Shown here: positions 4,879-54,337 of the stretch, piece by piece
Layout of the letters: the number at the start of each line of letters is the position of its first letter
Numbering within the stretch: position 1 is the first letter of the stretch
Source of the DNA: an uncultured Clostridia bacterium
Lineage (GTDB): Bacteria; Bacillota; Clostridia; Christensenellales; Borkfalkiaceae
Assembly: GCA_947624965.1 (NCBI GenBank)
Contig: CANQMN010000005.1
Coordinates: 36,442 to 100,441 of the forward strand
Length of the DNA: 64,000 nt
Direction: 5' to 3'
Notes under the pieces: generated by a model
Seen by the model: only the letters and a program-made list of their open reading frames with translations
Databases searched by the model: none
What the model was told of the DNA's origin: nothing
Position numbers and translations under genes: made by a program

Positions 4879-7338
4879 TTATTCCTCGCTGAACGTGAGC
4901 TTGCCGTCCTCTTCGTCCACGACGACGGTACTGCCCGCTTTGAACTTGCCCTTCAAAATCTCCTCGGAAAGCCGATCCTCCACGAGCCGCTGTACGGCGC
5001 GCTTCAACGGGCGTGCGCCGTACTCGTCGTTATACCCCTCTTCGACGAGCTTCATGCGGGCGCGGGAGCTCACCTTGATGAAATAGTTCCTCTCCGCGAG
5101 CCGCTTTTGAAGGGAGGAGAGAATTTTGTCGCAGATGGCGACGGCGTCCTCCCGCGTGAGTTTATGGAATACGATGACGTCGTCCAAACGGTTGAGAAAT
5201 TCGGGACGGAAATGCGCGCGGAGCGCCTCGTCGATGTTCTCGCGCATGTTCTCGTACTCGCTCTCCCCGTCCGCCGAGCGGAACCCGAGCGCGGGCTCCT
5301 TCACCGCGTGCGCGCCGATGTTGGACGTGAGGATGAGCACGGTGTTTTTGAAACTGACGACCCTGCCGCGGCTGTCCGTGAGCCGCCCGTCGTCGAGGAT
5401 CTGCAAGAGCAGATTGAATACGTCGGGGTGCGCCTTTTCGATCTCATCGAAGAGCACGACGGCATACGGCTTGCGGCGGATGGGCTCGGTGAGCTGTCCC
5501 CCCTGCATGTCGTCGTACCCGACGTACCCGGGGGGCGCGCCGATGAGCTTGGAGACGGCGTGCTTTTCCATGTATTCGGACATATCCAGCCGCACCATGA
5601 GCCGCTCGTCGCCGAACATGCACTCCGCGAGCGCCTTGCAAAGATCGGTCTTTCCGACGCCCGTGGGACCCACGAAGATGAAGGAGCCGATGGGGCGGTT
5701 GGGGTCCTTCAACCCCGCCCGCGCGCGGCGGATCGCCTTGGCGACGGCGTTCACCGCCTCGTTCTGCCCCACGATGCGCTCGTGGAGCTGTTCTTCGAGG
5801 TGCATGAGCCGCTCGCTCTCCTCCTCCGTGAGTTTGGCGACGGGCACGCCCGTCCAGCCGCTCACGATCTCCGCGATCTCCTCTCTTCCGATCGAGAGAT
5901 GGGTGGCGCTGCGCTTGCGCTTCCACTGCTCGGTAAGTTCGTCTATCTCCGCCGTGAGTTCCGCCATGCGGCGGGAGAGCTCGGAAACGCGCGCCTCGTC
6001 CCGCCATTTCGCCGCCTTCTCGCGCTCGATGCGGAGACGGTTGCGCTTATCCTCCGCCTCGCGCAGTTCCGCGGGACCGTTATACGAATTGAGACGGGCG
6101 CGGGACGCCGCTTCGTCGATGAGGTCGATCGCCTTATCGGGAAGGAACCTGTCCGTGATGTATCTGTCCGAAAGTTTCACCGCCGCCTCGATCGCCTCGT
6201 CCGTTATCACGACGTTGTGGTGCGCCTCGTACTTATCCTTCAAGCCCGTTAAAATGGCGATCGCGTCCTCCACGCTCGGCTGTTCCACCGTAACGGGCGT
6301 GAAACGGCGTTCGAGTGCGGCGTCCTTTTCAATATATTTGCGATATTCGTCCAGCGTCGTCGCCCCAACCGTTTGCAACTCGCCGCGCGCCAGCATGGGT
6401 TTCAAAATATTGGACGCGTCCATGTTGCTCTCCGAGGAGCTCCCCGCGCCGACGATCATGTGGATCTCGTCGATGAAGAGAATGATGTTCTTGTTCGCCG
6501 TGATGCTCTCGACGACCGATTTGAGCCGCTCCTCAAAGTCCCCGCGGTAGCGCGCGCCCGCGAGAAGCCCCGTAAGATTGAGCGAGAACACCGTCTTGCC
6601 GCGCAAAAGATCGGGGACGTTCCCCGCGACGATCTCCTGCGCAAGCCCTTCCACGACCGCGCTCTTCCCCACGCCCGGCTCGCCGACGAGCACGGGGTTG
6701 TTCTTTGTCCGCCGCGAGAGGATCTGAATTACTTTTTCGATCTCTTTGCGGCGTCCGATGACGGGGTCGAGCTTGCCCTCGCGAGCCTTGCGGGTGAGGT
6801 CGAGCCCGTAGTTGAGGAGATTTTCGTCGAGCGCCGCCGCGGGCTCGCCGCCCTCGGCGGTCTCCGGTCCGATGAACCTTCCGAAGTCCTCCCCCTCGTC
6901 GTCGAACGCGGGTATGGCGAACTTCCCCGTGCGGTCGGCGAGCGCGTCCACGTCCACGCCCATGCTTTTGAGGATATACACCGCGATGCAGTCCTCCATG
7001 CCGAGAATGGCAAGCAGAACGTGCTCCGTCCCCACGAGCGCGTGGAGATCGCCGCCCTGCATGGAAAATTCCTTCGCGCGCTCGAACAGCTTCTTGGTGC
7101 GGGGCGTATATCCCTGAACGGTGCCGATCCGCATAATGCCCCGCTTGAATCCTTCGAGATACCGTTTGAGGTCTACGTTCGCCTCGGCGAGCAGCCTCCC
7201 CGCCGTGCTCGACGGAATGCCGAGTAAGCCCAACATGATGTGCTCGCTCCCGATATAGCTCGTCTGGTACCGTTCCGCCGCCTCCTTCGCGAGGGCGAGC
7301 GCCGCTTTGAGATGATCGGAATAGCCCGAATCGTCCAT
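4879..7338 (-). CDS. clpC: ATP-dependent Clp protease ATP-binding subunit ClpC
   Basis: 819 aa with N-terminal Clp repeats, two AAA+ modules ([16 protein letters not shown]) and a UVR-like linker. Confidence 0.9.
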
Positions 7339-28717: not shown

Positions 28718-30148
28718 TTATTCCTGTTTTTCTTCGGGCGTCTCCGCGGGAGTTTCGCTCTCTTCCGCGGCGGGAGCCTCGGGCTCCTCCGCAGGGGTCT
28801 CTGCGGGAGCTTCGGCACCTTCCTGCGCCTTGCGCTTCGCTTCCATCTTCGCGTCGCGCTTCATCTGCTTCTTCATTTCCTTGGTAACGACGCGCGCCGC
28901 ATCGATCTGCGCCTTCATCTCCTGCGGCGTAGGAGGCACGAACGCCGCGCCCTCCGCGTTTTCGGGGATCACGTCGTAGTGCTCGTCGCGCTCCAAAAGG
29001 GTGGCTTCCGTGTAGCCGTCGAACAGGTGGATGTGCTTCGCGTCGAAGGCAAGCTCGACGATCTCGCCGAGATTGACGACCGCACGGGAAGAGATCTTCG
29101 CAATCATCTGCGCCGCGTTGTCGACGACGGAGTTCTTATCGCTCTCGTAATCGAGGTCGCAGTAGATCTGCGTCTCCGCGCCGAGTTTTTCGATAACGTC
29201 GATGCGCGCCTTCACGAGCGTCTCGGGAGAGGTGGAGATGAACGCCTGATCTTCGTGAATGTCCTCGGGACGGACGCCGAGCGTAACTTCCTTGCCCGTG
29301 TTGAGGTATTCGTCGATGTTCTTGATCTTCGCGACCATCGTCTTGGGAAGGACGATCTTGTTGCCGCCGATGAAGTTCACGCTCACCTTGCCGTTCTCTT
29401 CGGTGAGGGTGGAGTTCTTGAAGAAGTTCATCTGGGGCGTTCCGATGAAGCCCGCGACGAACAGGTTGATGGGATAATCGTAGAGGTTCTGGGGCGTATC
29501 GACCTGCTGCATGAAGCCGTCCTTCATGACGACGATACGGGTGCCCATCGTCATCGCTTCGATCTGATCGTGCGTGACGTAGATGAACGTCGTCGCGAGA
29601 CGGACGTGCAGTTTGGAAATTTCGGTACGCATCTGCGCACGGAGCTTCGCATCGAGGTTGGACAGAGGCTCGTCGAGCAGGAACACTTTGGGCTCGCGGA
29701 CGATCGTTCTGCCGAGCGCGACACGCTGGCGCTGACCACCGGAAAGAGCCTTGGGCTTACGGGAAAGGTAATCGGTGATGCCGAGGATCTCCGCGGCGGC
29801 TTTCACTTTCTCATCGATGACTTCCTTGGGCACCTTGCGGAGCTTCAAGCCGAACGCCATATTGTCGTAGACGGACATATGAGGATAGAGCGCGTAGTTC
29901 TGGAAAACCATTGCGATATCTCTGTCCTTGGGAACGACGTCGTTGACGAGCTTGCCGTCGATGTACAGTTCGCCCGAGGAGATCTCTTCGAGGCCCGCGA
30001 TCATGCGGAGCGTCGTAGACTTACCGCAGCCGGAGGGACCGACGAAGACGATGAATTCCTTGTCGCGGATATCGAGGCAGAAGTTGAACACCGCCTGGTT
30101 TCCGCCGGGATAAATTTTGTTGATGCCTTTGAGTAACAGACCGGACAT
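28718..30148 (-). CDS. MalK/MsmK-type sugar ABC transporter ATPase with about 100-aa charged C-terminal extension
   Basis: 476 aa with Walker A GPSGCGKST, signature LSGGQRQR and Walker B FLLDEPLS, plus a TOBE-like domain and a Lys/Glu/Ala/Pro-rich tail. No permease genes are adjacent. Confidence 0.85.
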   Translation of the reverse strand: MSGLLLKGINKIYPGGNQAVFNFCLDIRDKEFIVFVGPSGCGKSTTLRMIAGLEEISSGELYIDGKLVNDVVPKDRDIAMVFQNYALYPHMSVYDNMAFGLKLRKVPKEVIDEKVKAAAEILGITDYLSRKPKALSGGQRQRVALGRTIVREPKVFLLDEPLSNLDAKLRAQMRTEISKLHVRLATTFIYVTHDQIEAMTMGTRIVVMKDGFMQQVDTPQNLYDYPINLFVAGFIGTPQMNFFKNSTLTEENGKVSVNFIGGNKIVLPKTMVAKIKNIDEYLNTGKEVTLGVRPEDIHEDQAFISTSPETLVKARIDVIEKLGAETQIYCDLDYESDKNSVVDNAAQMIAKISSRAVVNLGEIVELAFDAKHIHLFDGYTEATLLERDEHYDVIPENAEGAAFVPPTPQEMKAQIDAARVVTKEMKKQMKRDAKMEAKRKAQEGAEAPAETPAEEPEAPAAEESETPAETPEEKQE

Positions 30149-30186
30149 AATTTTCCTCCCACAGAAAAGTAGATTTTTATGCTATT

Positions 30187-30215
30187 ATTTTACACGATAT
30201 GAAGGAAAATTTCAA
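30187..30215 (-). promoter_or_regulatory. candidate sigma-A promoter of the ABC ATPase gene
   Basis: The reverse strand reads TTGAAA-17 nt-TGtAAAAT. Confidence 0.4.
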
Positions 30216-30310
30216 GAGAAAATGATAACAAAGATTGACGGGCATTTTGTACAGTTTGCACAAAAAAAGAGGAAAAGCGCCTATTCCTTTTGTGCGGAAT
30301 GCGCGATATT

Positions 30311-31848
30311 CCCCCCCGCGCTCCGCGCGGGGGAGAAGAAGGAAAAGCGCGGGGGTACCAACAACTTACCTCCCCCTTGAAAGGGGGAGGGTTGGGTGGG
30401 GGTTGACGGGAAGGACGAAGGGTGGGGAGAAGAAGCCACTCCCCCTCCCCTATCGCCCGCACGTATTGTGCCGCCGAAGGGCGACACGAGGAGCGGAGCG
30501 ACGAAGTACCCCTCCCCCCCACCCTACCCTCCCCCTCACATCGTGAGGGGGAGGTAAAAACGAGGATGAGGGTAACAAGAACAACAAAGCGCAGGGGGAA
30601 AGTGAAACCACTCCCCCCCTCCTCTCCCCCGCGCGAAGCGCGGGGGAGTGCCAACAACTTACCTCCCCCTTTCAAGGGGGAGGGTTGGGTGGGGGTTGAC
30701 AGGAAGGACGAGAGGCGGGGAGAAGAAGCCACTCCCCCTACCCTATCGCCCGCACGTATTGTGCCGCCGAAGGGCGACACGAGGAGCGAAGCGACGAAGT
30801 ACCCGTCCCCCTCCCCAACCCCTCCCCCTCAATGAGGGGGAGGGTAAATAAGTAGTAATACGCGCGGGGGGAAAGAAGGAAAAGCGAGGGGGTACCAACT
30901 TACCTCCCCCTTGAAAGGGGGAGGGTTGGGTGGGGGTTGACGGGAAGGACGAAAGGTGAGGAGAAGAAACCACTCCCCCTACCCTACCCTCCCCCTCGCA
31001 AAGCGAGGGGGAGGGTAAAAGAAAGAAAAAAGGCGGGGAAATAGAGACCCCCCGCGCTCCGCGCGGGGGGTGAAGAAGGAAAAGCGCGGGGGTACCAACT
31101 TACCTCCCCCCCACTTGAAAGGGAAGGATCTGCCAACTCACCTCCCCCTTGAAAGGGGGAGGGTTGGGTGGGGGTTGAGATCTGCCGCGGCGCTCCTTTG
31201 TCTGCTCTCCCTCCCCAACCCCTGGGTGCGGCGGCAGGTACCGCCGCACCCCCCGTCGCGCTTGCCTGCGCTCCCGTCGCGGCGCGCTACTTCGTGCCGC
31301 GCTTAGTAGACAATAGTGCGCGCGGGGCACAGTCCACTGGACTGTTGAGCAGAACGCGCCGCTCCCCCCCCGCGCGAAGCGCGGGGGGGTTGACGGGAAG
31401 GACGAAAGGTGAGGAGAAGAAACCACTCCCCCTCCCCAACCCCTCCCCCTCGCAAGGCGAGGGGGAGGGTAAAAGAAAGAAAAGCGCGGGGGAGGGTAAA
31501 GAAAGAAAAGCGCGGGAAGGAAAAGACCTCCCCCGCGCGAAGCGCGGGGGTACCAACTTACCTCCCCCTTGAAAGGGGGAGGGTTGGGTGGGGGTTGACG
31601 GGAAGGACGAAAGGTGGGGAGAAGAAACCCCTCCCCCTACCCTACCCTCCCCCCTCACATCGTGAGGGGGGAGGTAAAAAAGACGAACGCGGGGGAGGGT
31701 AAAGAGGGATAGCGCGGGAAGAAAAAGAACTCCCCCGCGCGGAGCGCGGGGGAGGTTTGGTTCGTTATGGATACCGAAAGGTCGGTTGCGTATCCAATGT
31801 GGAGGGGGCTCCCCCTCCCCTACCCCTCCCCCTCAATGAGGGGGAGGG
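30311..31848. repeat. mosaic array of GC-rich palindromic units (left flank of giant lipoprotein gene)
   Basis: It contains recurrent hairpin units CCCCCGCGC-nnn-GCGCGGGGG, CCTCCCCC-TTGAAA-GGGGGAGG with a conserved tail, and CCCTCCCCCTC-loop-GAGGGGGAGGG. Details are in the findings. Confidence 0.85.
31257..31369 (+). repeat. 113-bp direct repeat, copy 1
   Basis: CGCGCTTGCCTGCGCTCCCGTCGCGGCGCGCTACTTCGTGCCGCGCTTAGTAGACAATAGTGCGCGCGGGGCACAGTCCACTGGACTGTTGAGCAGAACGCGCCGCTCCCCCC recurs at 36607-36719 with a single mismatch. Confidence 0.9.
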
Positions 31849-31884
31849 TGGGTTAAGCGTTAACGCCTAATCGGTCGAGAAGTG

Positions 31885-34800
31885 TTACTCTTGGGGCGTA
31901 AGCGTATTGCTGTAACAGAACGAGAGGTTATCGAGCCACCAGGTATTGCCAAGTTGCAATCTGAAAGTGAGCGCTTCCGTCGTAAAGTCATGCAAAACGA
32001 TCTTGTGCTCCCAAACAGATTCGTTCTGGCTGTGCAAACTGATGAGCACCGTGAACTTACTGCCGATCCTGTAAACCGTTACCTCGTAATCCCCGATAAC
32101 TTCCTCATCGCCCTCAACTTCCTCAGCAGGCTGCTGGGGTTTGGTTCCTTGGGTCGTCTCGTTGGTTTCGATTTTGTCATTAGTCAGGTCGCCCCAGATG
32201 TTACCATCGACAACATTGTAGTCGAAGTACTGATTGGCTGCATTAAAGAACTCGACAAAGCCGCAGTTGAAATACTTGCCGGCATCGCGTGTATTCGACC
32301 AAGATATTACCGCTACAAAGTCGCCCGCGGCAACTTGAACCTCGCTCGACGCGTCGCCGCCTTGTCCCCCGATAGCATTCGTATCGGCGTTATAGAAGGC
32401 ATAATTTCTCTCTGCCGTTGCGTTATACGTCGTATCGCTTTCCGTGATGGTGAGTTTCCGCGCGCCGCAGATGGAGCAGACGTTCTCCTCCCACTGGTGG
32501 TCGGCTTCCACTGCGGGAACGCTCTGCGCATTGCCGCTCCTCGTGACCGTGCCCGTGAACTGTACGCCCGCTTCGTCGCCGGCGATCCCGAGCCAATACT
32601 TATCCGCAAGTTTTTGATGCTTGTCGTATGCAGTATAGGTCATCACGTTCTGATAGTGCTTATCGCTCGCGGAGAACGTCGTGGTAACGACGATCTTCGT
32701 CGAATCCGAAAAGTCTACTACGATCTGGAAGTCGGACAAGGAGACCCCCACAAAGCTCGCTTGGAAGGTTTCACGCGAAGAAGCCACGTCGTCTATCGTC
32801 GAGTTAGACGTATAGGCGAGCATCGTATCGACGTTTACCGCACTGTTGCCCTTTGCGTTGTCGTTTACAAGAATGTTGTTGGCTTCGTAAACAGAGAATG
32901 CGATATTCACACTGTCCCCGTCATTCGGCGCCAATACGGCGACAACGGAGTCCCAAGCGTGAGTGAACTGCGTAGACCCTGCGTACGTAACCGTCTGCCC
33001 ATACCCGATGGACATGGAGAGCCATTCGGGCTGGAACCAACCCGTGCCGGTATAAGGCGTTTCGGTGTAGTTTACGCTGTTGAGGTCGTAAACCGCTTCG
33101 AGCGTGATACTGCCGCTCAGCGAAGAGAACTGCGAATCCGCCGTATAGGTCGAATTGTCGTTCGTCCCTTTCCAATAGCGGAAGGTACCCTTCGTGGACG
33201 TGGGATCCTCGTATCCTTCGACGAGGTCGGAAAGTTTGCCGTTCGACGTGCTCGTGAGCCCTGTCTGCTTCTTATACTCCGAACCGTCGTTCATGAGCGT
33301 GATGGTGAAGTCCTCCTTGAACACCGCAACAAACTCGATGTCGTCCATCTCGTCCGTCAGCGTAAGTTCGGAGATCGCCGTGGTATCGCCACTGCCGTCC
33401 GCGGAGTAGGTCGTGCCGTCATACTTCCAGCCGACGAGCGCGTGATCCGTCCACGTAGGGCCGTCCTCGGGAAGGGTGATCGCCTCGCCCGACTTCTTCG
33501 TTTGGGTCTGAACGTCCCACGAATCGCCATCGTAGTCTCCGTCCGTCGTGAAGGTTATGGTGTGCGCCTTCTCCCAAACCGCAACGAACTCGATGTTCGC
33601 AGTGATCGGGGTCTCATACTTTTCGCCGTCGTGCGTGTAGAGGCGCTCGCCCGAAACGTCGGTGGAGAGCTTCCAACCCTTGAAGGTCAGCTTGCCGTCC
33701 GTCGCCGTGGGATCTTCGGGCCACTGATCGGTGAGCGTCGTGTTCTTATCTACATAGAAGGACGTAGAGCCGTTGCCCTTCTCATCCGTGAAGGTAACTT
33801 GCGGGCGCTCTTCCCAAACCGCCGTGAAGGTGGTATCGGCAGTGATCGTCCCGGCGTAGGGGCTCGCCTTGGTGTACTTGGTATCGTCCCCGCCGTTCTT
33901 CGTCCAGCCGAGGAACTTGAAGCCCTCGGGCGCCGTGGGATCGTTGGGCCACTGATCGCCGATCGTCGCGTTTTGGTCTACATAGAAGGACGTAGAACCG
34001 ATGTTCTTGTCATCCGTGAAGGTGATATGCCACTGCCGTTCCCACTGCGCGTTGAACGTCGTCGCGTCAATGATCGCTTCGGAATAGGGGTTCGACTTGG
34101 TGTACTTTTCGCCGTCGTTGCCGTCCTTCGTCCAACCGAGGAACTTCCAGCCCGTTACGACGGGATCTTCGGGCCAAGAGCCCGCGGGGATCGTTTCGCC
34201 CTTTACGACGGAGAGCGTCTTGCCGCTTCCGCCCTTGTTATCCGTAAAGGTAACTTCCCACACTTGGTCTGCGCTCGGCTGGGTGTAAACCGCATACGTC
34301 GCGGGTTCGCCGCCGTAGATGCCGATGCTCTCATCGAGGTAGTGCAGGAACCAATATTCGAGATCTTCGTCTCCCGAAGCAAAGCCGACGTAGCCGTAAC
34401 CGCCGAGCCACATGATCGCGCCCGTCTTGGCGCCCATCGACAGGCTGCCCTCTTCGATGATAACGGTCTCGTGCTCCGCCGCCATCCACGTGCCTTCCAC
34501 GTCCGAGGGTGCGAGACCGATCGGGTTCTTCGTTGCATTCGCAGAGCCGATGACGATGTGGTCCGTATCATACGTGAAGGAAAGGAGGCCGCTGTACTCG
34601 GTGGTATACGTGCCGTCTGCATAGTTGACCGCTACGAGACGCGCGGACTGGGTATCGCCCGCCGTCCAGATGAGCGCATTCGCAACGTGCGTGCCCTCTA
34701 CATCCGCGGGAACGGTGATGAGAATGGTGTCGTTCCCGTTCGCATACTGCCCTTCGATCTCCAATTCCCAAACTGCGGCATACTCGTATGTCTCGCCGCC

Positions 34801-36183
34801 TTCGAGTTCCGTGATCGTCTCGCCGGGAGCTTTAATTGTCATCGAGCCGACGCCGTGGCCGCCCCCTTCATTGACGCCCCAACCCTTGAAGGCGTAGCAA
34901 CCGAGCGACGCCGTAAATCCGAGCGCAGAAGGCTGGGGAAGGGTGAGCGAGAAGGTATCCGAAGTTTCCGTAAGGCAAGCGCGCACCTTGTTGTTTGCCT
35001 TGCCGATCGAGCCGCCCTCACCGCTGCCCGCGTTGAACACAACTTCGGGACGGATGGCGACTTTTTCGCCGTAGAGCGTGATATCTGCCGTCGGAACGTA
35101 GGTATAGTCCACAAGGGTGGTCGCATCGTGCGTCGTCTCGTCCGTATACCAATACATTTCCTGCGTCCAAACATCGTTTTCGAGCGCTTCGTCATCGACG
35201 TCGCTGAACGCCCACTCGTCGCCGATGGGCTCGCCCTTCGCGACTTCGATCGTCGCGGTGAGCGGCGCCCCCTCCACAGAGAAGGAGACCGTCCACTTGT
35301 CCTCGGCGAGAATATCGCCGTTCTCGTACATCGTGCAGCTGTCGCCGCCCAGAACGTTGACGCCGCCCGTCGTCTTTTCCACGATGTAGTAGTCGTCGTC
35401 GGCGCACGTAAGGACCGCCCACTTGCCGAGATAAATTACGGTGTAGCCGTCGCCGTCAAGGGTCGCCATGCCGCCCGTCTTGATTTCGAGACGGGACGTC
35501 TCATGATGATAGACGCCGACAAATTCGGGCGTTGCGGGAAGCGCGGCATGCTCGGTGAGTTGGAGCGTATCCATATCGCCGTACTTAAACGTGAGCGTTC
35601 CTTCCGCATAGGAGAGGATCGCATCCTCGGCGGGAAGCGCATTCCCCTGGATGCTTTTCAGCGTATACGCGCCGTCCTCTTCGTCAACTTGGAGAAGTAT
35701 CGTAAAACAGTGCGAGCTCGACGAATCGTCGCGGGCAACCATCACGAGGTCGTAATCGTAGCCTGCCAACGTGCCCGCGGCTTGAATGCCGATCTCCATG
35801 GTCATCGTAACGCCGGGCCCCTCCGAATCCGTGATGGTCCAGAGACCCGGGATGCCGTCGGGAACGTTTTCCTGCCACTGCGCGGTGAACGTTACGTTCT
35901 TCTTGGGCATCGTATATTCCGCCTTGGCGGCGTACGTCTTCGTGCCGTCGCTCCAACCCGTGAACGTATGATTCTCATACGAATAGGTGCTTTCCGCAAG
36001 CTGGAACTTTTCCCCCTCTGCGTGCGTTTCGCTTTCAGGCGTCGTTCCCGTTACCGCCGTGTTGCCCGGCGCGTACGTTACGGTGTACTTGTCCCCCTCC
36101 GTCTCCGTACACGCGGCAATGCCGCACGCCAGAAGCGATACGAGAAGAACGGAGCCGAACACTTTGCACAAAAGTTTCTTCAT
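31885..36183 (-). CDS. 1432-aa surface lipoprotein with InlB B-repeat (Listeria-Bacteroides repeat) domains
   Basis: It has signal peptide plus lipobox MKKLLCKVFGSVLLVSLLACGIAAC. There are at least 6 repeats ending in F.GW...(A/T)(V/Q)W (e.g. FLGWTKDG...FNAQW, FKGWKL...FVAVW). The C-terminus has beta-sandwich-like domains. An AGGAGG RBS is present. Confidence 0.8.
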   Translation of the reverse strand: MKKLLCKVFGSVLLVSLLACGIAACTETEGDKYTVTYAPGNTAVTGTTPESETHAEGEKFQLAESTYSYENHTFTGWSDGTKTYAAKAEYTMPKKNVTFTAQWQENVPDGIPGLWTITDSEGPGVTMTMEIGIQAAGTLAGYDYDLVMVARDDSSSSHCFTILLQVDEEDGAYTLKSIQGNALPAEDAILSYAEGTLTFKYGDMDTLQLTEHAALPATPEFVGVYHHETSRLEIKTGGMATLDGDGYTVIYLGKWAVLTCADDDYYIVEKTTGGVNVLGGDSCTMYENGDILAEDKWTVSFSVEGAPLTATIEVAKGEPIGDEWAFSDVDDEALENDVWTQEMYWYTDETTHDATTLVDYTYVPTADITLYGEKVAIRPEVVFNAGSGEGGSIGKANNKVRACLTETSDTFSLTLPQPSALGFTASLGCYAFKGWGVNEGGGHGVGSMTIKAPGETITELEGGETYEYAAVWELEIEGQYANGNDTILITVPADVEGTHVANALIWTAGDTQSARLVAVNYADGTYTTEYSGLLSFTYDTDHIVIGSANATKNPIGLAPSDVEGTWMAAEHETVIIEEGSLSMGAKTGAIMWLGGYGYVGFASGDEDLEYWFLHYLDESIGIYGGEPATYAVYTQPSADQVWEVTFTDNKGGSGKTLSVVKGETIPAGSWPEDPVVTGWKFLGWTKDGNDGEKYTKSNPYSEAIIDATTFNAQWERQWHITFTDDKNIGSTSFYVDQNATIGDQWPNDPTAPEGFKFLGWTKNGGDDTKYTKASPYAGTITADTTFTAVWEERPQVTFTDEKGNGSTSFYVDKNTTLTDQWPEDPTATDGKLTFKGWKLSTDVSGERLYTHDGEKYETPITANIEFVAVWEKAHTITFTTDGDYDGDSWDVQTQTKKSGEAITLPEDGPTWTDHALVGWKYDGTTYSADGSGDTTAISELTLTDEMDDIEFVAVFKEDFTITLMNDGSEYKKQTGLTSTSNGKLSDLVEGYEDPTSTKGTFRYWKGTNDNSTYTADSQFSSLSGSITLEAVYDLNSVNYTETPYTGTGWFQPEWLSMSIGYGQTVTYAGSTQFTHAWDSVVAVLAPNDGDSVNIAFSVYEANNILVNDNAKGNSAVNVDTMLAYTSNSTIDDVASSRETFQASFVGVSLSDFQIVVDFSDSTKIVVTTTFSASDKHYQNVMTYTAYDKHQKLADKYWLGIAGDEAGVQFTGTVTRSGNAQSVPAVEADHQWEENVCSICGARKLTITESDTTYNATAERNYAFYNADTNAIGGQGGDASSEVQVAAGDFVAVISWSNTRDAGKYFNCGFVEFFNAANQYFDYNVVDGNIWGDLTNDKIETNETTQGTKPQQPAEEVEGDEEVIGDYEVTVYRIGSKFTVLISLHSQNESVWEHKIVLHDFTTEALTFRLQLGNTWWLDNLSFCYSNTLTPQE

Positions 36184-36325
36184 TCTGGTCCTCCTGATAT
36201 TATTTTTGCTCTATGTCCAACGGTTATGCATCTCTCCCGAGAACCCCCATTGCCGGGAGAAAAGCATCGCCACCTGTGCCGATTTCCTCGGTTTTTTTGA
36301 CAATAAAAACCAATTATGTGGGTAT

Positions 36326-36355
36326 AGTATACCATTACCCCCCCCCGAATGTCAA
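36326..36355 (-). promoter_or_regulatory. promoter of the giant lipoprotein gene with a G9 tract in the spacer
   Basis: The reverse strand reads TTGACA ttcGGGGGGGGGtaatgg TATACT. The spacer is 18 nt with a TGg extended -10. The C9 run lies at 36338-36346 on +. Confidence 0.55.
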
Positions 36356-36390
36356 CCGTTTTGTGAAAATTTATTTTTTATTATAAGGTC

Positions 36391-37477
36391 TGCGCGCCCG
36401 CGCGTGAGAAACCACGCCCTTCGGCGCACTTTTCCACCCCCACCCCTTATGAGGGGGAAAGAGAGTGTTCTCCCCACGTTGAGGGGGGGAACGAAGCCAC
36501 TCCCCCCACCCTACCCCTCGGGTGCGGCGGCAGGTACCGCCGCACCCCCCGTACTTCGGCGCAATGCGCCTCGTGCCGCGCTTAGTAGACAATCGTGCGC
36601 GCGGGGCGCGCTTGCCTGCGCTCCCGTCGCGGCGCGCTACTTCGTGCCGCGCTTAGTAGGCAATAGTGCGCGCGGGGCACAGTCCACTGGACTGTTGAGC
36701 AGAACGCGCCGCTCCCCCCTCGCTTGCGAGGGGGGAGGTAAAGAGAACCGACGAGAGGGATATATAGCTACCTTCCCCCTCGCTTGCGAGGGGGAAGGTA
36801 AAAAGGAAAACGCGGGGAGAGAATATATCCACCTCCCCCCTTCCAAGAGGGAGCAAAATCTATCTACCTCCCCCTTCCAAGGGGAAACAAAATATATCCA
36901 CCTCCCCCTTTCCAAGGGGGAGGGTTGGGTGGGGGTTGATTTCCTCACTCGCCTTTCCCCTCTCCTTTCCTCCCCCTCATTGAAAGGAGAGAAAAATAGA
37001 GTGTTCTCCCCTCAACGAGGAGAGAACGAAGCCACTCCCCCTACCCTGCCCTTCCCCCTCGCAACGCGAGGGGGAAGGTAAAGAGAACCGACGCGGGGAA
37101 ACAAAATCTATCTACCTCCCCCTTCCAAGGGGAAACAAAATATATCCACCTCCCCCTTCCCAAGGGGAAACAAAATATATCCACCTCCCCCTTTCCAAGG
37201 GGGAGGGTTGGGTGGGGGTTGATTTCCTCACTCGCCTTTCCCCTCTCCTTCCCCCCCTCATTGAAAGGAGAAAAAATAGAGTGGTCTCCCCTCGTTGAGG
37301 GGAGACCGAAACCACTCCCCCTACCCTACCCTCGGGTGCGGCGGCAGGTACCGCCGCACCCCCCGTACTTCGGCGCAATGCGCCTCGTGCCGCGCTTGGT
37401 CAATAATAGTGCGCGCGGGGCGCGCTTGCCTGCGCTCCCCCTACCCTGCCCTCCCCCCTCGTGAACGAGGGGGGAGG
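36391..37477. repeat. mosaic array of GC-rich palindromic units (right flank / upstream of giant lipoprotein gene)
   Basis: It uses the same unit families as the left array. It also has about 34-bp mini-units (caaaatatatccaCCTCCCCCttccaaGGGGG) and a duplicated compound unit (36854-37046 and 37102-37329). Confidence 0.85.
36607..36719 (+). repeat. 113-bp direct repeat, copy 2
   Basis: It matches 31257-31369 with one A/G mismatch. Confidence 0.9.
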
Positions 37478-37539
37478 TAAGAGGGAACCGACGCGGGAGG
37501 AGGGAAAAACGGCGTGGGAGGAGAGAGCGGCATAAAAAA

Positions 37540-37567
37540 TCCGCGCGGACAGATCTGTCCGCGCGGA
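37540..37567 (-). terminator. rho-independent terminator of clpX
   Basis: The palindrome is TCCGCGCGGACAGATCTGTCCGCGCGGA, followed on the reverse strand by ATTTTTTATG. Confidence 0.7.
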
Positions 37568-37587
37568 ACGGTTTCCCTATTCTTCCG

Positions 37588-51706: not shown

Positions 51707-54337
51707 TTATGCGTTCTTCGTCCAAGTATAGAAGTCCGTCAACGCCGCCGCAACTGCGGCAGGATCGGAAAAGTCGGGCGTAACGTCTTCATCAAAGTAG
51801 TTCTTCGCCGTCCAACCCGTCGCATCGGCGAACGTCGCCCCCGTCAGACCGCATCCGGAAAACGCGTCCCCGCCGAGCTCTGCGACGCTCGCCGGAATGA
51901 TAACGCTCGTAAGGTCATAGTTGGAAGCAAACGCGCTTGCGCCGATATGCCGCACCTTTTCTCCGAGCGTGAGTTCGGTGATGCCGCAGTACTCGAACGC
52001 ATGGTCCCCGATGAACGTAACGTTCCCCGAAACGGTAACGCTTGTAAGATCATAGTTGGAAGCAAACGCCGCCTCCCCGATCGTCTCCGTATTCGCGCCG
52101 AGTCGGAGCCCCGTAATGCCGCAAGAGTCGAATGCGTGCGCGCCGATCTCCTTCACGTCCGAGCCGATCGCGACCTCGTCATAGATCGCCTTACCCGAGA
52201 AGGCATAGTCGCCGATCTTCCGAACGCCGTCCACGGTGAGCGCGCCGTATCCGCTCACAATGCCGATGACGAGGGTATCCGTCGCCTTTTCCACGACGCC
52301 GCACGTCCTCACCTCATAGAAGGAATTGCCCGCCGCCACCTCGATCTCGGTGAGGTTACTGTTATCGGCGAACGCCGTGGAGGCGATCTTCTCCACGCTC
52401 GCGGGCAAATGGAGCGCCGTCGTCGAGATATTCCAAAACGCGTACGGCTTGATCTCCTTCACGCCCTCGGGAATGGTGAGCGTTGTCCCGTAGTCGTTGA
52501 TCACCGTCTCTACGCCGCCCGCGGTCGAGGCATAGATAGTCGCACTCTCCCAAACCAAGGGGTTCGCGCCGTCGTCCGCAAAGTCGATCTCGCACCACTT
52601 CGCAAGGTCTTTGATGTGGAAGACGGTGTCCTCGCCGAACGGCGTGCAGGAGGAGAACGCCCATTCGCCGACCCGCTTCAACCCCGTGCCGATGGTGAGA
52701 TCGGTGATCGTTCCGCAGTTATAGAACGCCCGTTCGCCGATCTCCTCCACGCTGTCGGGAATGACGAACGTCGGCGAGAGCGCCGTCTGCTCGAACGTAT
52801 GGGCGGGAACGATCTTTATGCCGCTCGGAATTTGCGAATTACAGCATCCGAGCACGACGGACATCGTCGCCCTGTCATAGATGCAGTTGGTCTCCGACCC
52901 GTACGCGGCATTGCCCGCGGCAACGGAGAGCGACGTGATATCCGCACAGCCTTGCAGAACGCCGAAGCCGATCTTCTCGACGTCCTTCCCGACCGTGAAG
53001 GAGGTAAGCTCCGCACAGCCCGCAAAGGTAAAGGCGTTGATCTCGGTCACGCCGTCGGGAATGACGACTTCGGTAACCTTCTGCCCGTCCGCATAGAGCA
53101 AGGCGTTCCCGCCGTTGAGCGGGTTCGCGGAGGCGTCGGGAGAGTCCTCATCATAGACGAATTCGATTTCAAGCCACTGTGCGAGGGAGGGAATGTTCAC
53201 CGTCTGAATGGCGTCGCACATGGAAAACGCCGATCCCTCGATTTTTTTCAGCCCGCTGCCGAAGGAGACCGATCGCAGCGCGTCGCAGAGCATAAACGCG
53301 CCGTTCCCGATCTTGCGCAAGCTGTCGGGGAGTTCGATCTCCTCCAACAAACTGCAAAAGGAGAATGCGCTCGAACCGATGGATCTCACATTTTCCCCGA
53401 AAGTCACGTTCGCGAGGTTGGAACAACCGTCGAACACATTGTCCATGATGACCGCCGTCTCTGCCGCGATCGTAACCTCGGTGATCCCCTCGATGCTCTC
53501 GGGGTCTGCGATCGCGACGAGGACCAATTTCGGATGCTCCGCGTTGCCGAGATAGTTGTATCCCCCCTCCTCATGATAGGTGAGCGCGTCGCACTCCTCG
53601 AAGGCGCCGTAACCGATCTCCGCGATACTGTCGCCGAGGGACAGGGTTTCGAGCGCGGAACACCCGAAAAAGGCGTAGGCCGCAATTTCCGACACGCTGT
53701 CGGGAAGAACGATGGTCTCGATCTTATCGCAATAGCCGAAGGCGCAGTAGCCGATGCTCTTGATATTGTTGCCGAATACGACCTCTTCGAGCACTTTCCC
53801 GACGTCTTTTGCGTCCGCGCGGAACGCATGTGCTGCGATCGCCGTCACAGGCTTTTCGTTATGCGTATCGGGAATGACGATCTTTGTGAGGGTGTCGTTC
53901 GTCGTCCCCGTCACAGTGTAACCGCCGTCCTCGTTTTCGAGGAACCCGAGCGAAGTCGTGCCGTCCGCATGCCAATGGCAGACGGAACACTCGTAGTCGT
54001 TGATAAAGGTATGCTCCGCCTCGCCGTCACGCGCGCCGCAGCGCGTGCACGCGTAGTAATGACCGTTTTCATCCGCCGAATAGGTCGTCTCGAAGTCATG
54101 CCCGAGTTTGGTTATGGCTTGCGTTTCAATGTCGTCGCACGTCGTGCATTCGCGCTGCCGTTCGCCGTCCGCCGTGCAGGTCGCGTCCCTCGTCGTATGC
54201 CATTCGCCATAGGCATGGGTATGGGGCTCAATACCCCCCCCCGGATTTTCGCTGTCGCTTCCGCAGGCGCAGAGCGCCGACATCGAACCCGTCGCAAGAA
54301 ACACAGCCGCCAAGATCGTCGCAATTTTCCGTCTCAT
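51707..54337 (-). CDS. BspA-type leucine-rich-repeat surface lipoprotein
   Basis: 876 aa with signal plus lipobox MRRKIATILAAVFLATGSMSALCAC, a Cys/His-rich N-terminal module, and many LRR_5-type units (IPDSV..IG..AF..C..L..). Confidence 0.8.
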   Translation of the reverse strand: MRRKIATILAAVFLATGSMSALCACGSDSENPGGGIEPHTHAYGEWHTTRDATCTADGERQRECTTCDDIETQAITKLGHDFETTYSADENGHYYACTRCGARDGEAEHTFINDYECSVCHWHADGTTSLGFLENEDGGYTVTGTTNDTLTKIVIPDTHNEKPVTAIAAHAFRADAKDVGKVLEEVVFGNNIKSIGYCAFGYCDKIETIVLPDSVSEIAAYAFFGCSALETLSLGDSIAEIGYGAFEECDALTYHEEGGYNYLGNAEHPKLVLVAIADPESIEGITEVTIAAETAVIMDNVFDGCSNLANVTFGENVRSIGSSAFSFCSLLEEIELPDSLRKIGNGAFMLCDALRSVSFGSGLKKIEGSAFSMCDAIQTVNIPSLAQWLEIEFVYDEDSPDASANPLNGGNALLYADGQKVTEVVIPDGVTEINAFTFAGCAELTSFTVGKDVEKIGFGVLQGCADITSLSVAAGNAAYGSETNCIYDRATMSVVLGCCNSQIPSGIKIVPAHTFEQTALSPTFVIPDSVEEIGERAFYNCGTITDLTIGTGLKRVGEWAFSSCTPFGEDTVFHIKDLAKWCEIDFADDGANPLVWESATIYASTAGGVETVINDYGTTLTIPEGVKEIKPYAFWNISTTALHLPASVEKIASTAFADNSNLTEIEVAAGNSFYEVRTCGVVEKATDTLVIGIVSGYGALTVDGVRKIGDYAFSGKAIYDEVAIGSDVKEIGAHAFDSCGITGLRLGANTETIGEAAFASNYDLTSVTVSGNVTFIGDHAFEYCGITELTLGEKVRHIGASAFASNYDLTSVIIPASVAELGGDAFSGCGLTGATFADATGWTAKNYFDEDVTPDFSDPAAVAAALTDFYTWTKNA

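What the first reader, a model, noticed from the sequence alone, without database searches (positions are those of the whole stretch)
30311..31848. 1.5-kb non-coding mosaic of GC-rich palindromic units downstream of the giant lipoprotein gene
The block is built almost entirely from a few hairpin families used combinatorially.
- Type A is CCCCCGCGC-nnn-GCGCGGGGG. It occurs 6 times, at about 30313, 30626, 31048, 31364, 31530 and 31732.
- Type B is CCTCCCCC-TTGAAA-GGGGGAGG followed by a conserved tail GTTGGGTGGGGGTTGACGGGAAGGACGAAAGGTG.GGAGAAGAA.CCACTCCCCCT. It occurs 5 times, at 30369, 30662, 30903, 31141 and 31561, and there is also a degenerate copy at about 31100.
- Type D is CCCTCCCCCTC-loop-GAGGGGGAGGG. 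Its inner stem varies in a compensatory way (CAC/GTG, GC/GC, A/T). It occurs 6 times, at 30527, 30820, 30987, 31441, 31646 and 31824. Each copy is followed by TAAA(A/G)A.
- A 60-nt linker (ATCGCCCGCACGTATTGTGCCGCCGAAGGGCGACACGAGGAGCG.AGCGACGAAGTACCC) occurs twice.

Spacing between units is irregular, at about 200-420 bp. The hairpins have no downstream U tract in either direction, so they are not ordinary terminators. The organisation resembles enterobacterial REP/BIME mosaics. I know of no described equivalent in Clostridia-like genomes.
Basis: seen in the sequence. Interest (0 to 1): 0.7.

Follow-up and report, generated by a model that had tools for sequence, protein, structure and literature searches.

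The report
Clustered triplex-motif (BoxC-type) palindromic repeats
The 1.5-kb block is real non-coding DNA built from a known kind of bacterial repeat (BoxC/PIT "intrastrand triplex" hairpins), here piled up unusually densely on both sides of one large surface-protein gene in a Clostridia-type gut bacterium.

Summary
All hairpin families sit at the stated coordinates, far above chance, and several independent metagenome assemblies carry the same sequence.

- Type B plus its "conserved tail" and type D plus its upstream C-run are one ~35-nt module (M) in opposite orientations.
- The tail is a mirror copy of the hairpin's purine arm, giving 8-11 canonical purine-motif triads.
- A second mosaic lies on the other side of the giant gene.

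Module M matches the known BoxC / PIT / "TM" intrastrand-triplex repeat (Holder et al. 2015, PMC4666352). It shares that family's forward/reverse doublets of two subtypes.

The window holds 15 modules (7 on the + strand, 8 on the - strand), all inside the two mosaics. Related genomes have 200-280-nt spacers with ordinary terminators at the same locus, and no modules. The mosaic is therefore lineage-specific.

It most likely grew by tandem amplification of a ~205-240-nt composite unit plus nested inserts. No Rfam family, coding signal, transposase or RAYT was found.

Side lead: in other phyla these modules bracket DUF559 (Vsr-like) nuclease genes, including E. coli ycjD next to the original BoxC locus. 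I found no description of this link in the paper library I could search.

Verdict: new variant of a known kind, moderate interest.

The parts
30313..30333 (.). Type A hairpin 1 (CCCCCGCGC-TCC-GCGCGGGGG). A plain GC hairpin with a mixed-sequence stem and no triplex tail.
30369..30402 (+). Module M(+) number 1: the B hairpin (CCTCCCCCT-TGAA-AGGGGGAGG) plus the mirror G-tail (GTT-GGGTGGGGG). 9 canonical triads.
30403..30440 (+). Inner spacer s (TTGACGGGAAGGACGAAGGGTGGGGAGAAGAAGCCACT) between M(+) and M(-). Also present at 30696-30733, 30937-30974, 31390-31427 and 31595-31632.
30452..30512 (+). 60-nt linker, copy 1. It is inserted at the C-tail, and a C-tail is present on both sides of it.
30516..30554 (-). 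Module M(-) number 1: the C-tail plus the D hairpin. 8 triads when read on the minus strand.
30624..30648 (.). Type A hairpin 2.
30662..30695 (+). Module M(+) number 2.
30745..30804 (+). 60-nt linker, copy 2.
30806..30844 (-). Module M(-) number 2 (D hairpin 30820-30844). 10 triads.
30903..30936 (+). Module M(+) number 3.
30972..31017 (-). Module M(-) number 3 (D hairpin 30985-31017). Its third strand has a 1-nt bulge.
31047..31071 (.). Type A hairpin 3. On the minus strand it is followed by CTCTATTTCC.
31100..31123 (+). Degenerate M(+) remnant (CCTCCCCCCCACTTGAAAGGGAAGG).
31141..31174 (+). Module M(+) number 4. Its unit is interrupted just after the tail's TTGA.
31224..31362 (+). GC-rich insert X, copy 1. 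It starts with the hairpin GGGTGCGGCGG-CAGGTA-CCGCCGCACCC. It is near-identical to X2 at 36520-36711, in direct orientation on the other side of the giant gene.
31365..31389 (.). Type A hairpin 4. Here it takes the place of B plus its tail in front of spacer s.
31425..31469 (-). Module M(-) number 4 (D hairpin 31441-31469). 11 triads.
31457..31516 (+). Local 26-nt tandem duplication, 2.3 copies of GCGCGGGGGAGGGTAAAAGAAAGAAAA. A slippage footprint.
31530..31550 (.). Type A hairpin 5. On the minus strand it is followed by AGGTCTTTTC.
31561..31594 (+). Module M(+) number 5.
31631..31674 (-). Module M(-) number 5 (D hairpin 31646-31674).
31720..31754 (-). Type A hairpin 6 plus TTCTTTTTCT. The best intrinsic-terminator candidate for the giant gene, about 130 nt after its stop codon.
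31809..31848 (-). Module M(-) number 6 (D hairpin 31824-31848). 11 triads. Lies 37 nt downstream of the giant gene's stop codon.
30187..30215 (-). Promoter-like site (TTGAAA-17-TAAAAT) for the MalK-like ABC ATPase gene. It lies outside the mosaic, in the region collinear with the promoter region of relative L176.
31885..36183 (-). Gene for a 1432-aa protein with a Flg_new (Listeria-Bacteroides repeat) domain. It is bracketed by the two mosaics.
36395..37530 (.). Mosaic 2. It contains M(+) at 36901-36935 and 37184-37218; M(-) at 37034-37078 and 37435-37477; tail-less D-type hairpins at 36712-36737 and 36769-36800; and X2 (36520-36711) and X3 (37334-37432).
37540..37567 (-). Canonical intrinsic terminator of clpX (a hairpin followed by TTTTTT). 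It shows that this genome uses ordinary terminators.

Best explanation
**What it is.** The block is a lineage-specific cluster of BoxC/PIT-type 'intrastrand triplex motif' repeats. Each module M has three parts:
- a homopyrimidine arm (CCCTCCCCC);
- a loop followed by the complementary homopurine arm (GGGGGAGGG);
- 2-4 nt later, a G-rich third segment (GGGTGGGGG) that mirrors the purine arm.

As single-stranded DNA this can fold into a hairpin plus a purine-motif triplex. The same run is also a canonical G-quadruplex motif.

**How the modules are arranged.** They occur as forward/reverse doublets, M(+), a 38-nt spacer, then M(-). Each doublet is joined to a plain GC hairpin (type A) and purine-rich linkers to make a composite unit of about 205-240 nt.

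**How it got there.**
- Shown: the orthologous spacers in relatives lack the modules entirely.
- Inferred: the composite unit entered the two spacers flanking the giant gene. It was then amplified in tandem by replication slippage or unequal recombination between the G/C runs, and was interrupted by nested inserts (the 60-nt linker and element X).

**What it does.** It is DNA-level selfish or neutral repeat material, not an RNA gene or a coding sequence.
- Likely consequence 1 (inferred, following the published E. coli data): local genome instability at a locus that is already hypervariable.
- Likely consequence 2 (inferred): stable 3'-end hairpins, and at least one usable terminator (A6), for the giant gene's transcript.
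- How the modules first spread between loci and genomes is unknown.
For: **Identity with the known family.**
- B and reverse-complemented D align as one module.
- 12 M modules satisfy the antiparallel purine-motif rule with 8-11 consecutive canonical triads, as does one type A hairpin (7 triads). Nothing else in the 64 kb does.
- The module differs from E. coli TMECO type A (CCCTCTCCCTTGAGGGAGAGGGTTAGGGTGAGGGT; PMC4666352 Table 1) only by covarying changes in the stem and the third strand.
- That paper also reports inverted doublets that always pair two subtypes.
- The same hairpin-plus-tail occurs in more than 120 genome loci from many phyla. 113 of 129 have the complementary 5' arm, which the search pattern did not require.

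**Lineage-specific origin.**
- Relatives L176, L173-175, L172 and L178 have 200-280-nt spacers with canonical terminators and no modules in 13-21 kb each.
- L176 has clpX directly next to the MalK-like gene.

**Tandem amplification and nesting.** See the supra-unit alignment, the repeat families with spacings of 205, 241, 293 and 454 nt, the 26-nt slippage array, and the X and linker inserts flanked by duplicated C-tails.

**Not RNA and not coding.** No Rfam family reaches its threshold. Codon-position GC is flat.

**A real sequence.** Independent assemblies agree.

**Instability.** The published link between TM loci and rearrangement fits the variable gene content of the clpX-malK spacer among relatives.
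Against: - Triplex or G4 folding of these particular sequences was not tested. For E. coli TMECO a triplex was seen only in single-stranded DNA in vitro, not in vivo.
- The literal TMECO pattern (third strand GGGNGAGGG, second loop N3) is not matched exactly.
- Only 64 kb of the genome is visible. I cannot say whether the modules are dispersed genome-wide, as in E. coli, or confined to this locus.
- All 15 modules lie next to one gene and none occur at about 14 other terminator-bearing spacers. That is unlike the scattered distribution described for BoxC, and would also fit a locus-specific function.
- Published PIT tests found no terminator activity, so the terminator role of A6 rests on a consensus scan only.
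Confidence: 0.7

Rival explanations
1. The modules are the non-autonomous partners of a DUF559 (Vsr-like PD-(D/E)XK) nuclease encoded elsewhere in the genome, analogous to REPINs and their RAYT. The nuclease would recognise or cut the hairpin/triplex ends and so drive copying and clustering.
For: - 9 of 9 DUF559 genes found in motif-selected loci are bracketed by M-type modules, usually as M(+), then the gene, then M(-). In L099 the gene sits exactly between the G-tail and the C-tail.
- 4 of 4 DUF559 orthologues in the Sphingomonadales carA-carB spacer are flanked by such modules.
- 8 of 8 taxa sampled from the plasmid collection have a triplex-type motif within 200 nt of the DUF559 gene: Azospirillum, Sphingomonas, Shinella, Sinorhizobium, Deinococcus, E. 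coli ycjD, Picosynechococcus and Neisseria.
- E. coli ycjD lies beside fabI (envM), where BoxC was first described.
- The motif sequence differs between lineages but keeps the rule linking stem and mirror tail.
- Short doublets (20-100 nt spacers) coexist with two DUF559-containing ones (320-366 nt).
- The DUF559 gene is syntenic and apparently single-copy, as RAYTs are.
Against: - There is no DUF559 gene in the 64-kb window, in the Clostridia locus L026, or in about 250 kb of Tepidisphaerales-like contigs carrying more than 30 doublets.
- There is no biochemical evidence that DUF559 acts on these sequences. A Caulobacter DUF559 protein was instead proposed, not shown, to act in T:G mismatch repair.
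- The association could arise because DUF559 genes home into pre-existing doublets rather than mobilise them.
- Holder et al. report no mobility genes near TMECO sites.
Confidence: 0.3
2. The block is a REP/BIME array maintained by a REP-associated tyrosine transposase (RAYT), as in enterobacteria and pseudomonads.
For: - It consists of extragenic palindromes in alternating orientation with conserved linkers.
- REPIN-like doublets fold as long hairpins.
Against: - No GTAG or CGTC tag lies next to any stem (read directly; tag families as in PMC3733652).
- No Y1 transposase, RAYT or other transposase was found among the window ORFs scanned against Pfam. Not every ORF was scanned.
- The mirror third strand is not a REP feature but does define BoxC/PIT elements.
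Confidence: 0.07
3. The array acts at RNA level. It would be a 3'-UTR/5'-UTR insulator that terminates, stabilises or attenuates transcripts of the giant gene and the MalK-like gene.
For: - The minus-strand RNA downstream of the giant gene folds much better than shuffles (z = -6.6).
- Three type A hairpins have T-rich tails on the gene strand.
- The first stable hairpin lies 37 nt after the stop codon.
- G:U-compatible T:G positions occur in some 5' arms in other phyla.
Against: - Relatives run the same genes with one ordinary terminator and a 200-280-nt spacer.
- No Rfam family matches.
- According to the literature cited in PMC4666352, purine-motif triplexes do not form in RNA. The conserved mirror tail therefore has no RNA-level explanation.
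- PIT elements showed no promoter or terminator activity in published tests.
- Fifteen-fold redundancy is not needed for termination.
Confidence: 0.15
4. The two mosaics are recombination devices. G4 or triplex motifs and the direct X repeats would promote programmed loss, replacement or variation of the giant surface-protein gene.
For: - 16 of the 21 G4 motifs in the window lie in the 2.9 kb of mosaics.
- X1 and X2 are near-identical direct repeats 5.3 kb apart that flank the gene.
- The locus content differs in every relative examined.
- Contig L180 shows an alternative join inside the mosaic.
Against: - Five assemblies from different samples carry the same gene and the same flanks, so no variation was actually seen.
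- The L180 join may be a short-read mis-join.
- No silent cassettes or recombinase were found in the window.
Confidence: 0.08
5. The block is an assembly artefact or a cryptic coding region.
For: - Short-read contigs often end inside the block (L121, L122, L180-183).
- Long ORFs exist on both strands.
Against: - L179 spans the whole block with 1 mismatch in 8 kb, and other contigs are 100% identical.
- The ORFs have flat codon-position GC.
- The one ORF tested, the 196-aa ORF at 30190-30780(-), has no homologue among 5.8 billion proteins.
Confidence: 0.01

Closest known systems
BoxC / PIT elements / TMECO intrastrand triplex motifs (Bergler 1992; Hoyne & Maher 2000, 2002; Holder et al. 2015, PMC4666352)
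   Same: - The architecture is the same: pyrimidine arm, loop, purine arm, short loop, mirror G-rich third strand.
- The sequence is near-identical to TMECO type A apart from covarying positions.
- Both are strictly intergenic.
- Both form forward/reverse doublets that pair two subtypes.
- Both are associated with a variable locus.
   Different: - The host is a Clostridia-class gut bacterium. The published TMECO set is proteobacterial, with other G/C-rich motifs noted in cyanobacteria, Thermus and Neisseria.
- The third strand is GGGTGGGGG (stem N = C:G) and the second loop is 2-4 nt, so the literal TMECO pattern is not matched.
- 15 modules are packed into two mosaics of 1.5 and 1.1 kb, with extra plain hairpins, fixed linkers and nested inserts. 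The published pattern is singletons or doublets scattered around the chromosome.
Enterobacterial REP/BIME mosaics and REPIN-RAYT systems
   Same: - Extragenic palindromes of two subtypes alternate in orientation, with conserved linkers.
- Doublets can fold into a long hairpin.
- Clusters sit between a terminator and the next promoter.
   Different: - There is no GTAG or CGTC tag and no RAYT.
- The modules carry a mirror-repeat third strand.
- In other phyla the only gene recurrently linked to them is a DUF559 PD-(D/E)XK nuclease, not a Y1 transposase.
MITEs (for example Correia, RUP, Nezha)
   Same: - A small, non-coding unit bounded by inverted repeats.
- Multi-copy in some genomes: more than 30 copies of a ~150-nt version occur in Tepidisphaerales-like contigs.
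- Assemblies break at them.
   Different: - No target-site duplication is visible.
- No parent IS is known.
- The ends are triplex-type hairpins rather than transposase-binding inverted repeats.
G-quadruplex-forming intergenic repeats (for example the Xanthomonas/Nostoc heptamer repeat, PMC4692102; the Neisseria pilE G4)
   Same: - G-run motifs with 1-2-nt loops are concentrated in intergenic DNA.
- They lie next to a surface-protein gene.
   Different: - Here the G-runs are part of a hairpin-plus-mirror module, not a simple-sequence repeat.
- No recombination function has been shown.

Membership tests
BoxC / PIT / TM intrastrand triplex motif | A homopyrimidine arm, a loop and the complementary homopurine arm forming a hairpin of at least 8 bp. 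| tested here: met
   9-15-bp stems in all 15 modules.
BoxC / PIT / TM intrastrand triplex motif | A third G-rich segment 1-6 nt after the purine arm that mirrors it (antiparallel G.G:C, A.A:T and T.A:T triads). | tested here: met
   - 12 M modules, plus one type A hairpin, have 7-11 consecutive canonical triads.
- 3 further modules have a 1-nt bulge.
- There are none elsewhere in the window.
- The third strand covaries with the stem: GAGG pairs with GGTG, GAGGG with GGGAG, and GAAGG with GGTAG.
BoxC / PIT / TM intrastrand triplex motif | The literal TMECO pattern CCCTCNCCC N3-6 GGGNGAGGG N3 GGGNGAGGG. | tested here: not met
   The first two blocks fit. The third is GGGTGGGGG (G instead of A at position 6, matching its own stem) and the second loop is 2-4 nt. 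It is therefore a sequence variant, not TMECO sensu stricto.
BoxC / PIT / TM intrastrand triplex motif | Intergenic location, with inverted doublets that pair two subtypes. | tested here: met
   All modules are intergenic. Every M(+) is the B subtype and every M(-) is the D subtype (compare).
BoxC / PIT / TM intrastrand triplex motif | Actual triplex formation by the single strand. | not testable with these tools
   This needs CD or NMR as in PMC4666352. ViennaRNA predicts only the hairpins.
BoxC / PIT / TM intrastrand triplex motif | Many dispersed copies per genome. | not testable with these tools
   Only 64 kb of this genome is available. The collection scans did not return the source genome.
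REP / BIME (RAYT-associated) | A GTAG or CGTC tetranucleotide at the foot of the palindrome. | tested here: not met
   The flanks are cTTA/TAAa or varied.
REP / BIME (RAYT-associated) | A cognate RAYT (Y1 transposase) gene flanked by the repeats. | tested here: inconclusive
   None was found among the window ORFs scanned. The rest of the genome is unseen.
REP / BIME (RAYT-associated) | Alternating orientation of palindromes with conserved linkers (the BIME architecture). | tested here: met
MITE | Terminal inverted repeats plus a target-site duplication, and a related autonomous IS. | tested here: not met
   Inverted ends are present, but there is no direct duplication at the unit borders and no IS was found.
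Any Rfam RNA family | A score at or above the family's gathering threshold. | tested here: not met
   There are no matches at threshold in the window or in 17 related loci. Below threshold there is only generic miRNA-hairpin noise.
Intrinsic terminators | A GC-rich hairpin followed by a U-tract on the transcribed strand. | tested here: inconclusive
   Three type A hairpins pass a simple consensus scan on the minus strand, but B and D modules do not. Activity was not tested.

The most novel reading that the evidence does not exclude
BoxC/PIT triplex-motif repeats, whose origin and spread have been unexplained since the 1990s, may be the cis partners of DUF559 (Vsr-like PD-(D/E)XK) nucleases. 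This would be a second, mechanistically distinct REPIN/RAYT-like system found across many bacterial phyla. On this reading the Clostridial mosaic in this window is an extreme local product of that system, and the hairpin-plus-mirror-tail structure is the nuclease's recognition element.
Probability: 0.25. Interest if true: 0.8.

Novelty: new variant of a known kind. Interest (0 to 1): 0.5.

Why it matters
- **Host range.** The finding places a well-defined but poorly understood repeat class (BoxC/PIT/TM) in a Clostridia-type gut bacterium.
- **New arrangement.** These modules can build BIME-like, tandemly amplified mosaics more than 1 kb long. I did not find this arrangement described.
- **A natural test case.** Relatives have empty sites at the same locus. 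That allows the published idea that triplex motifs destabilise their surroundings to be tested here.
- **A candidate protein partner.** The recurrent bracketing of DUF559 nuclease genes by these motifs, including at the original E. coli BoxC locus, offers the first candidate protein partner for the family and is cheap to test.
- **A practical point.** These arrays break short-read assemblies next to large surface-protein genes.

Tried and rejected
- **Rfam.** I scanned at the gathering threshold and at permissive thresholds. Only sub-threshold miRNA-like hairpin hits appeared.
- **Metagenome scan.** A 24-mer scan found a Tepidisphaerales-like repeat family, not the Clostridial lineage.
- **Viral contigs.** Three scans with lineage-specific patterns found nothing.
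- **Plasmid collection.** BLAST of a unit and of insert X found nothing meaningful.
- **Spurious mosaic ORF.** Searching the protein database with it, to find other copies, gave no hits.
- **tRNA scan.** None found.
- **Exact ClpX look-up.** The protein is not on record.
- **Homology to the empty site.** I tested whether the linker or X descends from the ancestral spacer of relative L176. Only 10-12-nt matches appeared, which is not significant.
- **The two large proteins.** The one next to the L026 array and the one next to the window array are unrelated.
- **G4 as the primary reading.** I considered this. The mirror-repeat rule and the published triplex work explain the conserved tail better, although both folds remain possible.
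- **First ORF pick.** Choosing the longest ORFs selected antisense frames. I replaced it with a GC3-based pick.
Full report
**1. Setting**

The finding lies in a 1736-nt gap (30149-31884) between two minus-strand genes.
- One gene is a MalK/UgpC-like ABC ATPase (28718-30148).
- The other encodes a 1432-aa protein with a Listeria-Bacteroides repeat domain (31885-36183).

The block is therefore 3' of the giant gene and 5' of the ATPase gene. The ATPase gene's promoter-like site (30215-30187) lies outside the repeats.

The window is core chromosome of a sporulating Firmicute.
- It carries clpC, mcsB, argS, tig-clpP-clpX, spoIIAA-spoIIAB-sigF, metH and ffh.
- The closest named relatives of the ATPase are 'Clostridia', 'Clostridiales' and 'Firmicutes' MAG proteins.

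**2.

- Pattern searches give 9-11 matches where 0.01-0.05 are expected by chance.
- The 60-nt linker occurs twice.
- Compensatory changes in the D stems are real: 4 of 13 pairs change on both sides.
- The ORFs that cross the block have flat GC at the three codon positions, unlike every real gene in the window.
- The one such ORF I searched with, the 196-aa ORF at 30190-30780(-), has no homologue among 5.8 billion proteins.

The sequence is not an artefact.
- A 58-kb contig from another sample (L179) spans the whole block with one mismatch in 8 kb.
- Four further contigs are identical over their overlaps.
- Several short-read contigs end inside the block, as expected for repeats.
- One contig (L180) joins unit 3 to the sequence that follows unit 5. 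This is either a copy-number variant or a mis-join.

**3.

*One module, two orientations.* Type B with its 'conserved tail' and type D with the C-rich run in front of it are the same ~35-nt module, M. When the D copies are reverse-complemented they align column for column with the B copies. A profile of M finds 15 strong matches in the 64 kb: seven on the + strand (all B subtype) and eight on the - strand (all D subtype). All 15 lie inside two mosaics, and nothing else appears even at E = 10.

*A second mosaic.* It lies at about 36395-37530, between the clpX terminator and the giant gene's promoter region. The giant gene is therefore bracketed.

*A regular period underneath.* The 'irregular spacing' is a degenerate tandem array of a composite unit of about 205-240 nt. 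The order of its parts is:
- an A hairpin;
- the connector TACCAAC(AAC)TTA;
- M(+);
- the 38-nt spacer s;
- M(-);
- a purine-rich linker.

The array is interrupted by the 60-nt linker (twice) and by a GC-rich insert, X. X and the linker sit at the C-tail, and a C-tail is present on both sides of each. X1 (31224-31362) and X2 (36520-36711) are near-identical direct repeats on either side of the giant gene.

*Some U-tracts do exist.* On the gene strand, three A hairpins carry T-rich tails in a simple consensus scan. The best is 31754-31730 followed by TTCTTTTTCT.

**4. Identity of the module**

The tail is not arbitrary.
- Read from its 3' end, the purine arm GGGGGAGGG gives GGGAGGGGG. The tail is GGGTGGGGG.
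- This is the antiparallel purine-motif rule for an intrastrand triplex: G.G:C throughout, and T.A:T at the single A.
- A rule-based scan finds 8-11 consecutive canonical triads in 12 M modules, and 7 in one type A hairpin (30624-30648). Three more modules have one bulge. There are none elsewhere in the window.
- The third strand covaries with the stem. Arm ...GAGG goes with tail GGTG..., ...GAGGG with GGGAG..., and ...GAAGG with GGTAG....

This architecture is the BoxC repeat of E. coli, later called the PIT element and then TMECO (Holder et al. 2015, PMC4666352).
- Their type A example is CCCTCTCCCTTGAGGGAGAGGGTTAGGGTGAGGGT.
- The window's B module is CCTCCCCCTTGAAAGGGGGAGGGTTGGGTGGGGGT.

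That paper reports:
- 3610 copies in 262 proteobacterial genomes;
- a strictly intergenic location;
- inverted doublets that always pair two subtypes;
- stable triplex formation by the single strand in vitro, but not detectably in vivo;
- no promoter or terminator activity in earlier tests;
- more rearrangement at motif-bearing loci between strains;
- no transposase or integrase nearby.

The literal TMECO pattern is not met here (third-strand position 6 and the length of loop 2). I therefore call this a sequence variant of the family, not TMECO itself. The same run is also a canonical G4 motif, and 16 of the window's 21 G4 motifs lie in the mosaics. Which fold forms was not tested.

**5. Distribution elsewhere**

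- The 20-mer 'purine arm plus tail' occurs in more than 120 loci from Alpha-, Beta-, Gamma- and Deltaproteobacteria, Chloroflexota, Planctomycetota and others.
- In 113 of 129 cases the complementary 5' arm is present, although the search did not require it.
- About a third have an inverted partner 20-100 nt downstream.
- In Tepidisphaerales-like metagenome contigs, a ~150-nt doublet with spacer ends like those of the window (TTGAC... ...GAAGAA/CCACT) is a dispersed repeat at which many contigs end.
- One other Clostridia MAG (L026, rabbit gut) has a tandem array of related modules. It starts right after the stop codon of an unrelated ORF of at least 925 aa and runs to the contig end.
- No Rfam family covers any of these loci.
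- Nothing was found in viral contigs or plasmids with lineage-specific queries.

**6. The mosaics are lineage-specific**

Relatives share the order tig-clpP-clpX ... malK-like-ArsP ... spoIIA. Their ATPases are about 86-94% identical to the window's in local protein alignment. They differ in what lies between clpX and the ATPase gene:
- nothing, with a 243-nt spacer (L176, GCA_947629575.1);
- a 565-aa Flg_new gene with 205-280-nt spacers (L173-175);
- DZR-domain genes on the other strand (L171, L172, L178).

All of them have ordinary terminators and promoters, and no M-type module in 13-21 kb each. The flanking genes therefore do not need the mosaics. The locus is a hot spot of gene-content change, which fits the published link between these motifs and instability.

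**7. Mechanism**

Shown:
- the module anatomy and the triplex rule;
- alternating orientation of the two subtypes;
- a tandem composite unit with nested inserts;
- absence from the orthologous spacers of relatives;
- no coding or known-RNA signal.

Inferred:
- The unit arrived in the two spacers and was amplified by slippage or unequal exchange between its G/C runs. The footprints are the 26-nt tandem array, an A hairpin standing in for B plus its tail in front of spacer s, and the duplicated C-tails.
- When single-stranded, the DNA can form hairpin, triplex or G4 structures that stall polymerases and promote rearrangement.
- As by-products, the giant gene's transcript acquires very stable 3' hairpins (z = -6.6) and a plausible terminator at A6.

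I put 0.7 on this overall reading. The step 'how do the modules spread' remains open.

**8. A lead on spread**

In other phyla the modules bracket DUF559 (PF04480; Vsr-like PD-(D/E)XK) genes.
- All nine DUF559 genes present in the motif-selected loci are flanked by M-type modules. In L099 the gene lies exactly between the G-tail and the C-tail.
- Starting instead from the protein, four DUF559 orthologues in the Sphingomonadales carA-carB spacer are flanked by such modules.
- Eight of eight taxa sampled from the plasmid collection have a triplex-type motif within 200 nt, with lineage-specific sequence but the same mirror rule.
- E. coli ycjD lies next to fabI (envM), where BoxC was first reported, with TMECO copies in the shared spacer.

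The 25 papers in the library that mention DUF559 do not describe this link by title or abstract; I opened two of them. The triplex paper mentions neither DUF559 nor ycjD.

The pattern resembles REPs flanking a single-copy RAYT. However, there is no DUF559 gene in this window, in L026, or near the Tepidisphaerales copies, and there is no biochemistry. I treat it as a rival or extension at about 0.25-0.3.

**9. Verdict**

The block is a real, non-coding, lineage-specific mosaic. Its core module belongs to a known repeat class (BoxC/PIT/TM).

What appears new:
- the host lineage;
- the BIME-like, tandemly amplified organisation on both sides of one large surface-protein gene;
- as a side observation, the association with DUF559.

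Interest is moderate. The main object is explained by a known family, but the locus and the DUF559 link make an old open question, what makes and spreads these motifs, directly testable.

Noticed in passing
window 36395-37530: A second mosaic of the same module family lies upstream of the giant gene, between the clpX terminator and the giant gene's promoter region. Its spacer differs (about 100 nt) and its period is 283 nt. The giant gene is therefore bracketed by mosaics.
   Followed up: yes
L001, L002, L029, L043, L048, L055, L081, L099; L158-L170; L184-L193: DUF559 (Vsr-like) nuclease genes in many phyla are bracketed by triplex-type hairpin-plus-mirror-tail modules. This includes E. coli ycjD beside fabI (envM), the original BoxC locus. 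I found no description of this link in the paper library I could search.
   Followed up: partly
window 31224-31362 versus 36520-36711 (and 37334-37432): The GC-rich insert X is present in three versions. X1 and X2 are near-identical direct repeats 5.3 kb apart that flank the giant gene. They are a possible substrate for deletion or gene conversion. X always sits between a C-tail and a hairpin.
   Followed up: partly
L171-L178 versus window 30149-37587: The clpX to malK-like spacer is a gene-content hot spot among relatives. It is empty in L176, holds a 565-aa Flg_new gene in L173-175, holds DZR-domain genes in L171, L172 and L178, and holds the 1432-aa gene plus mosaics here.
   Followed up: yes
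L180 positions 5700-6095 (window 31020-30882 joined to 31540-31283): One assembly joins unit 3 to the sequence that normally follows unit 5. This is either a real copy-number variant of the array or a repeat-induced mis-join.
   Followed up: no
L026 2905-3753: Another Clostridia MAG (rabbit gut) has a tandem array (period about 225-290 nt) of related modules. It begins at the stop codon of an ORF of at least 925 aa that has no Pfam match and no similarity to the window's giant protein. The contig ends inside the array.
   Followed up: partly
L124-L157 (metagenomes Ga0181517 and Ga0181520): A ~150-nt M(+), 65-nt spacer, M(-) doublet with conserved outer flanks is a dispersed repeat in Tepidisphaerales-like contigs. 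Many contigs start or end in it. Its spacer ends resemble those of the window's spacer s.
   Followed up: partly
window 42695, 51660, 54478, 56876, 59879: Several terminator-position hairpins share GCCGC(G)GCGGC-type stems. This may be another, looser hairpin family, or may just reflect the genome's terminator composition. One flanks an 876-aa BspA-type LRR surface protein (51707-54337, minus strand).
   Followed up: no
proteins P0121-P0240: The MalK/UgpC-like ATPase varies from 437 to 571 aa among close relatives (82-94% identity in the aligned part). Its C-terminal region is therefore length-variable.
   Followed up: no
L004, L025, L058, L061, L063, L067, L076: A recurrent Alphaproteobacterial variant has a T opposite G in the hairpin (CCCTCTCCC... 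with ...GGGGGAGGG). That is a T:G mismatch in a DNA hairpin, which is the substrate type of Vsr-family nucleases. This may be coincidence.
   Followed up: no
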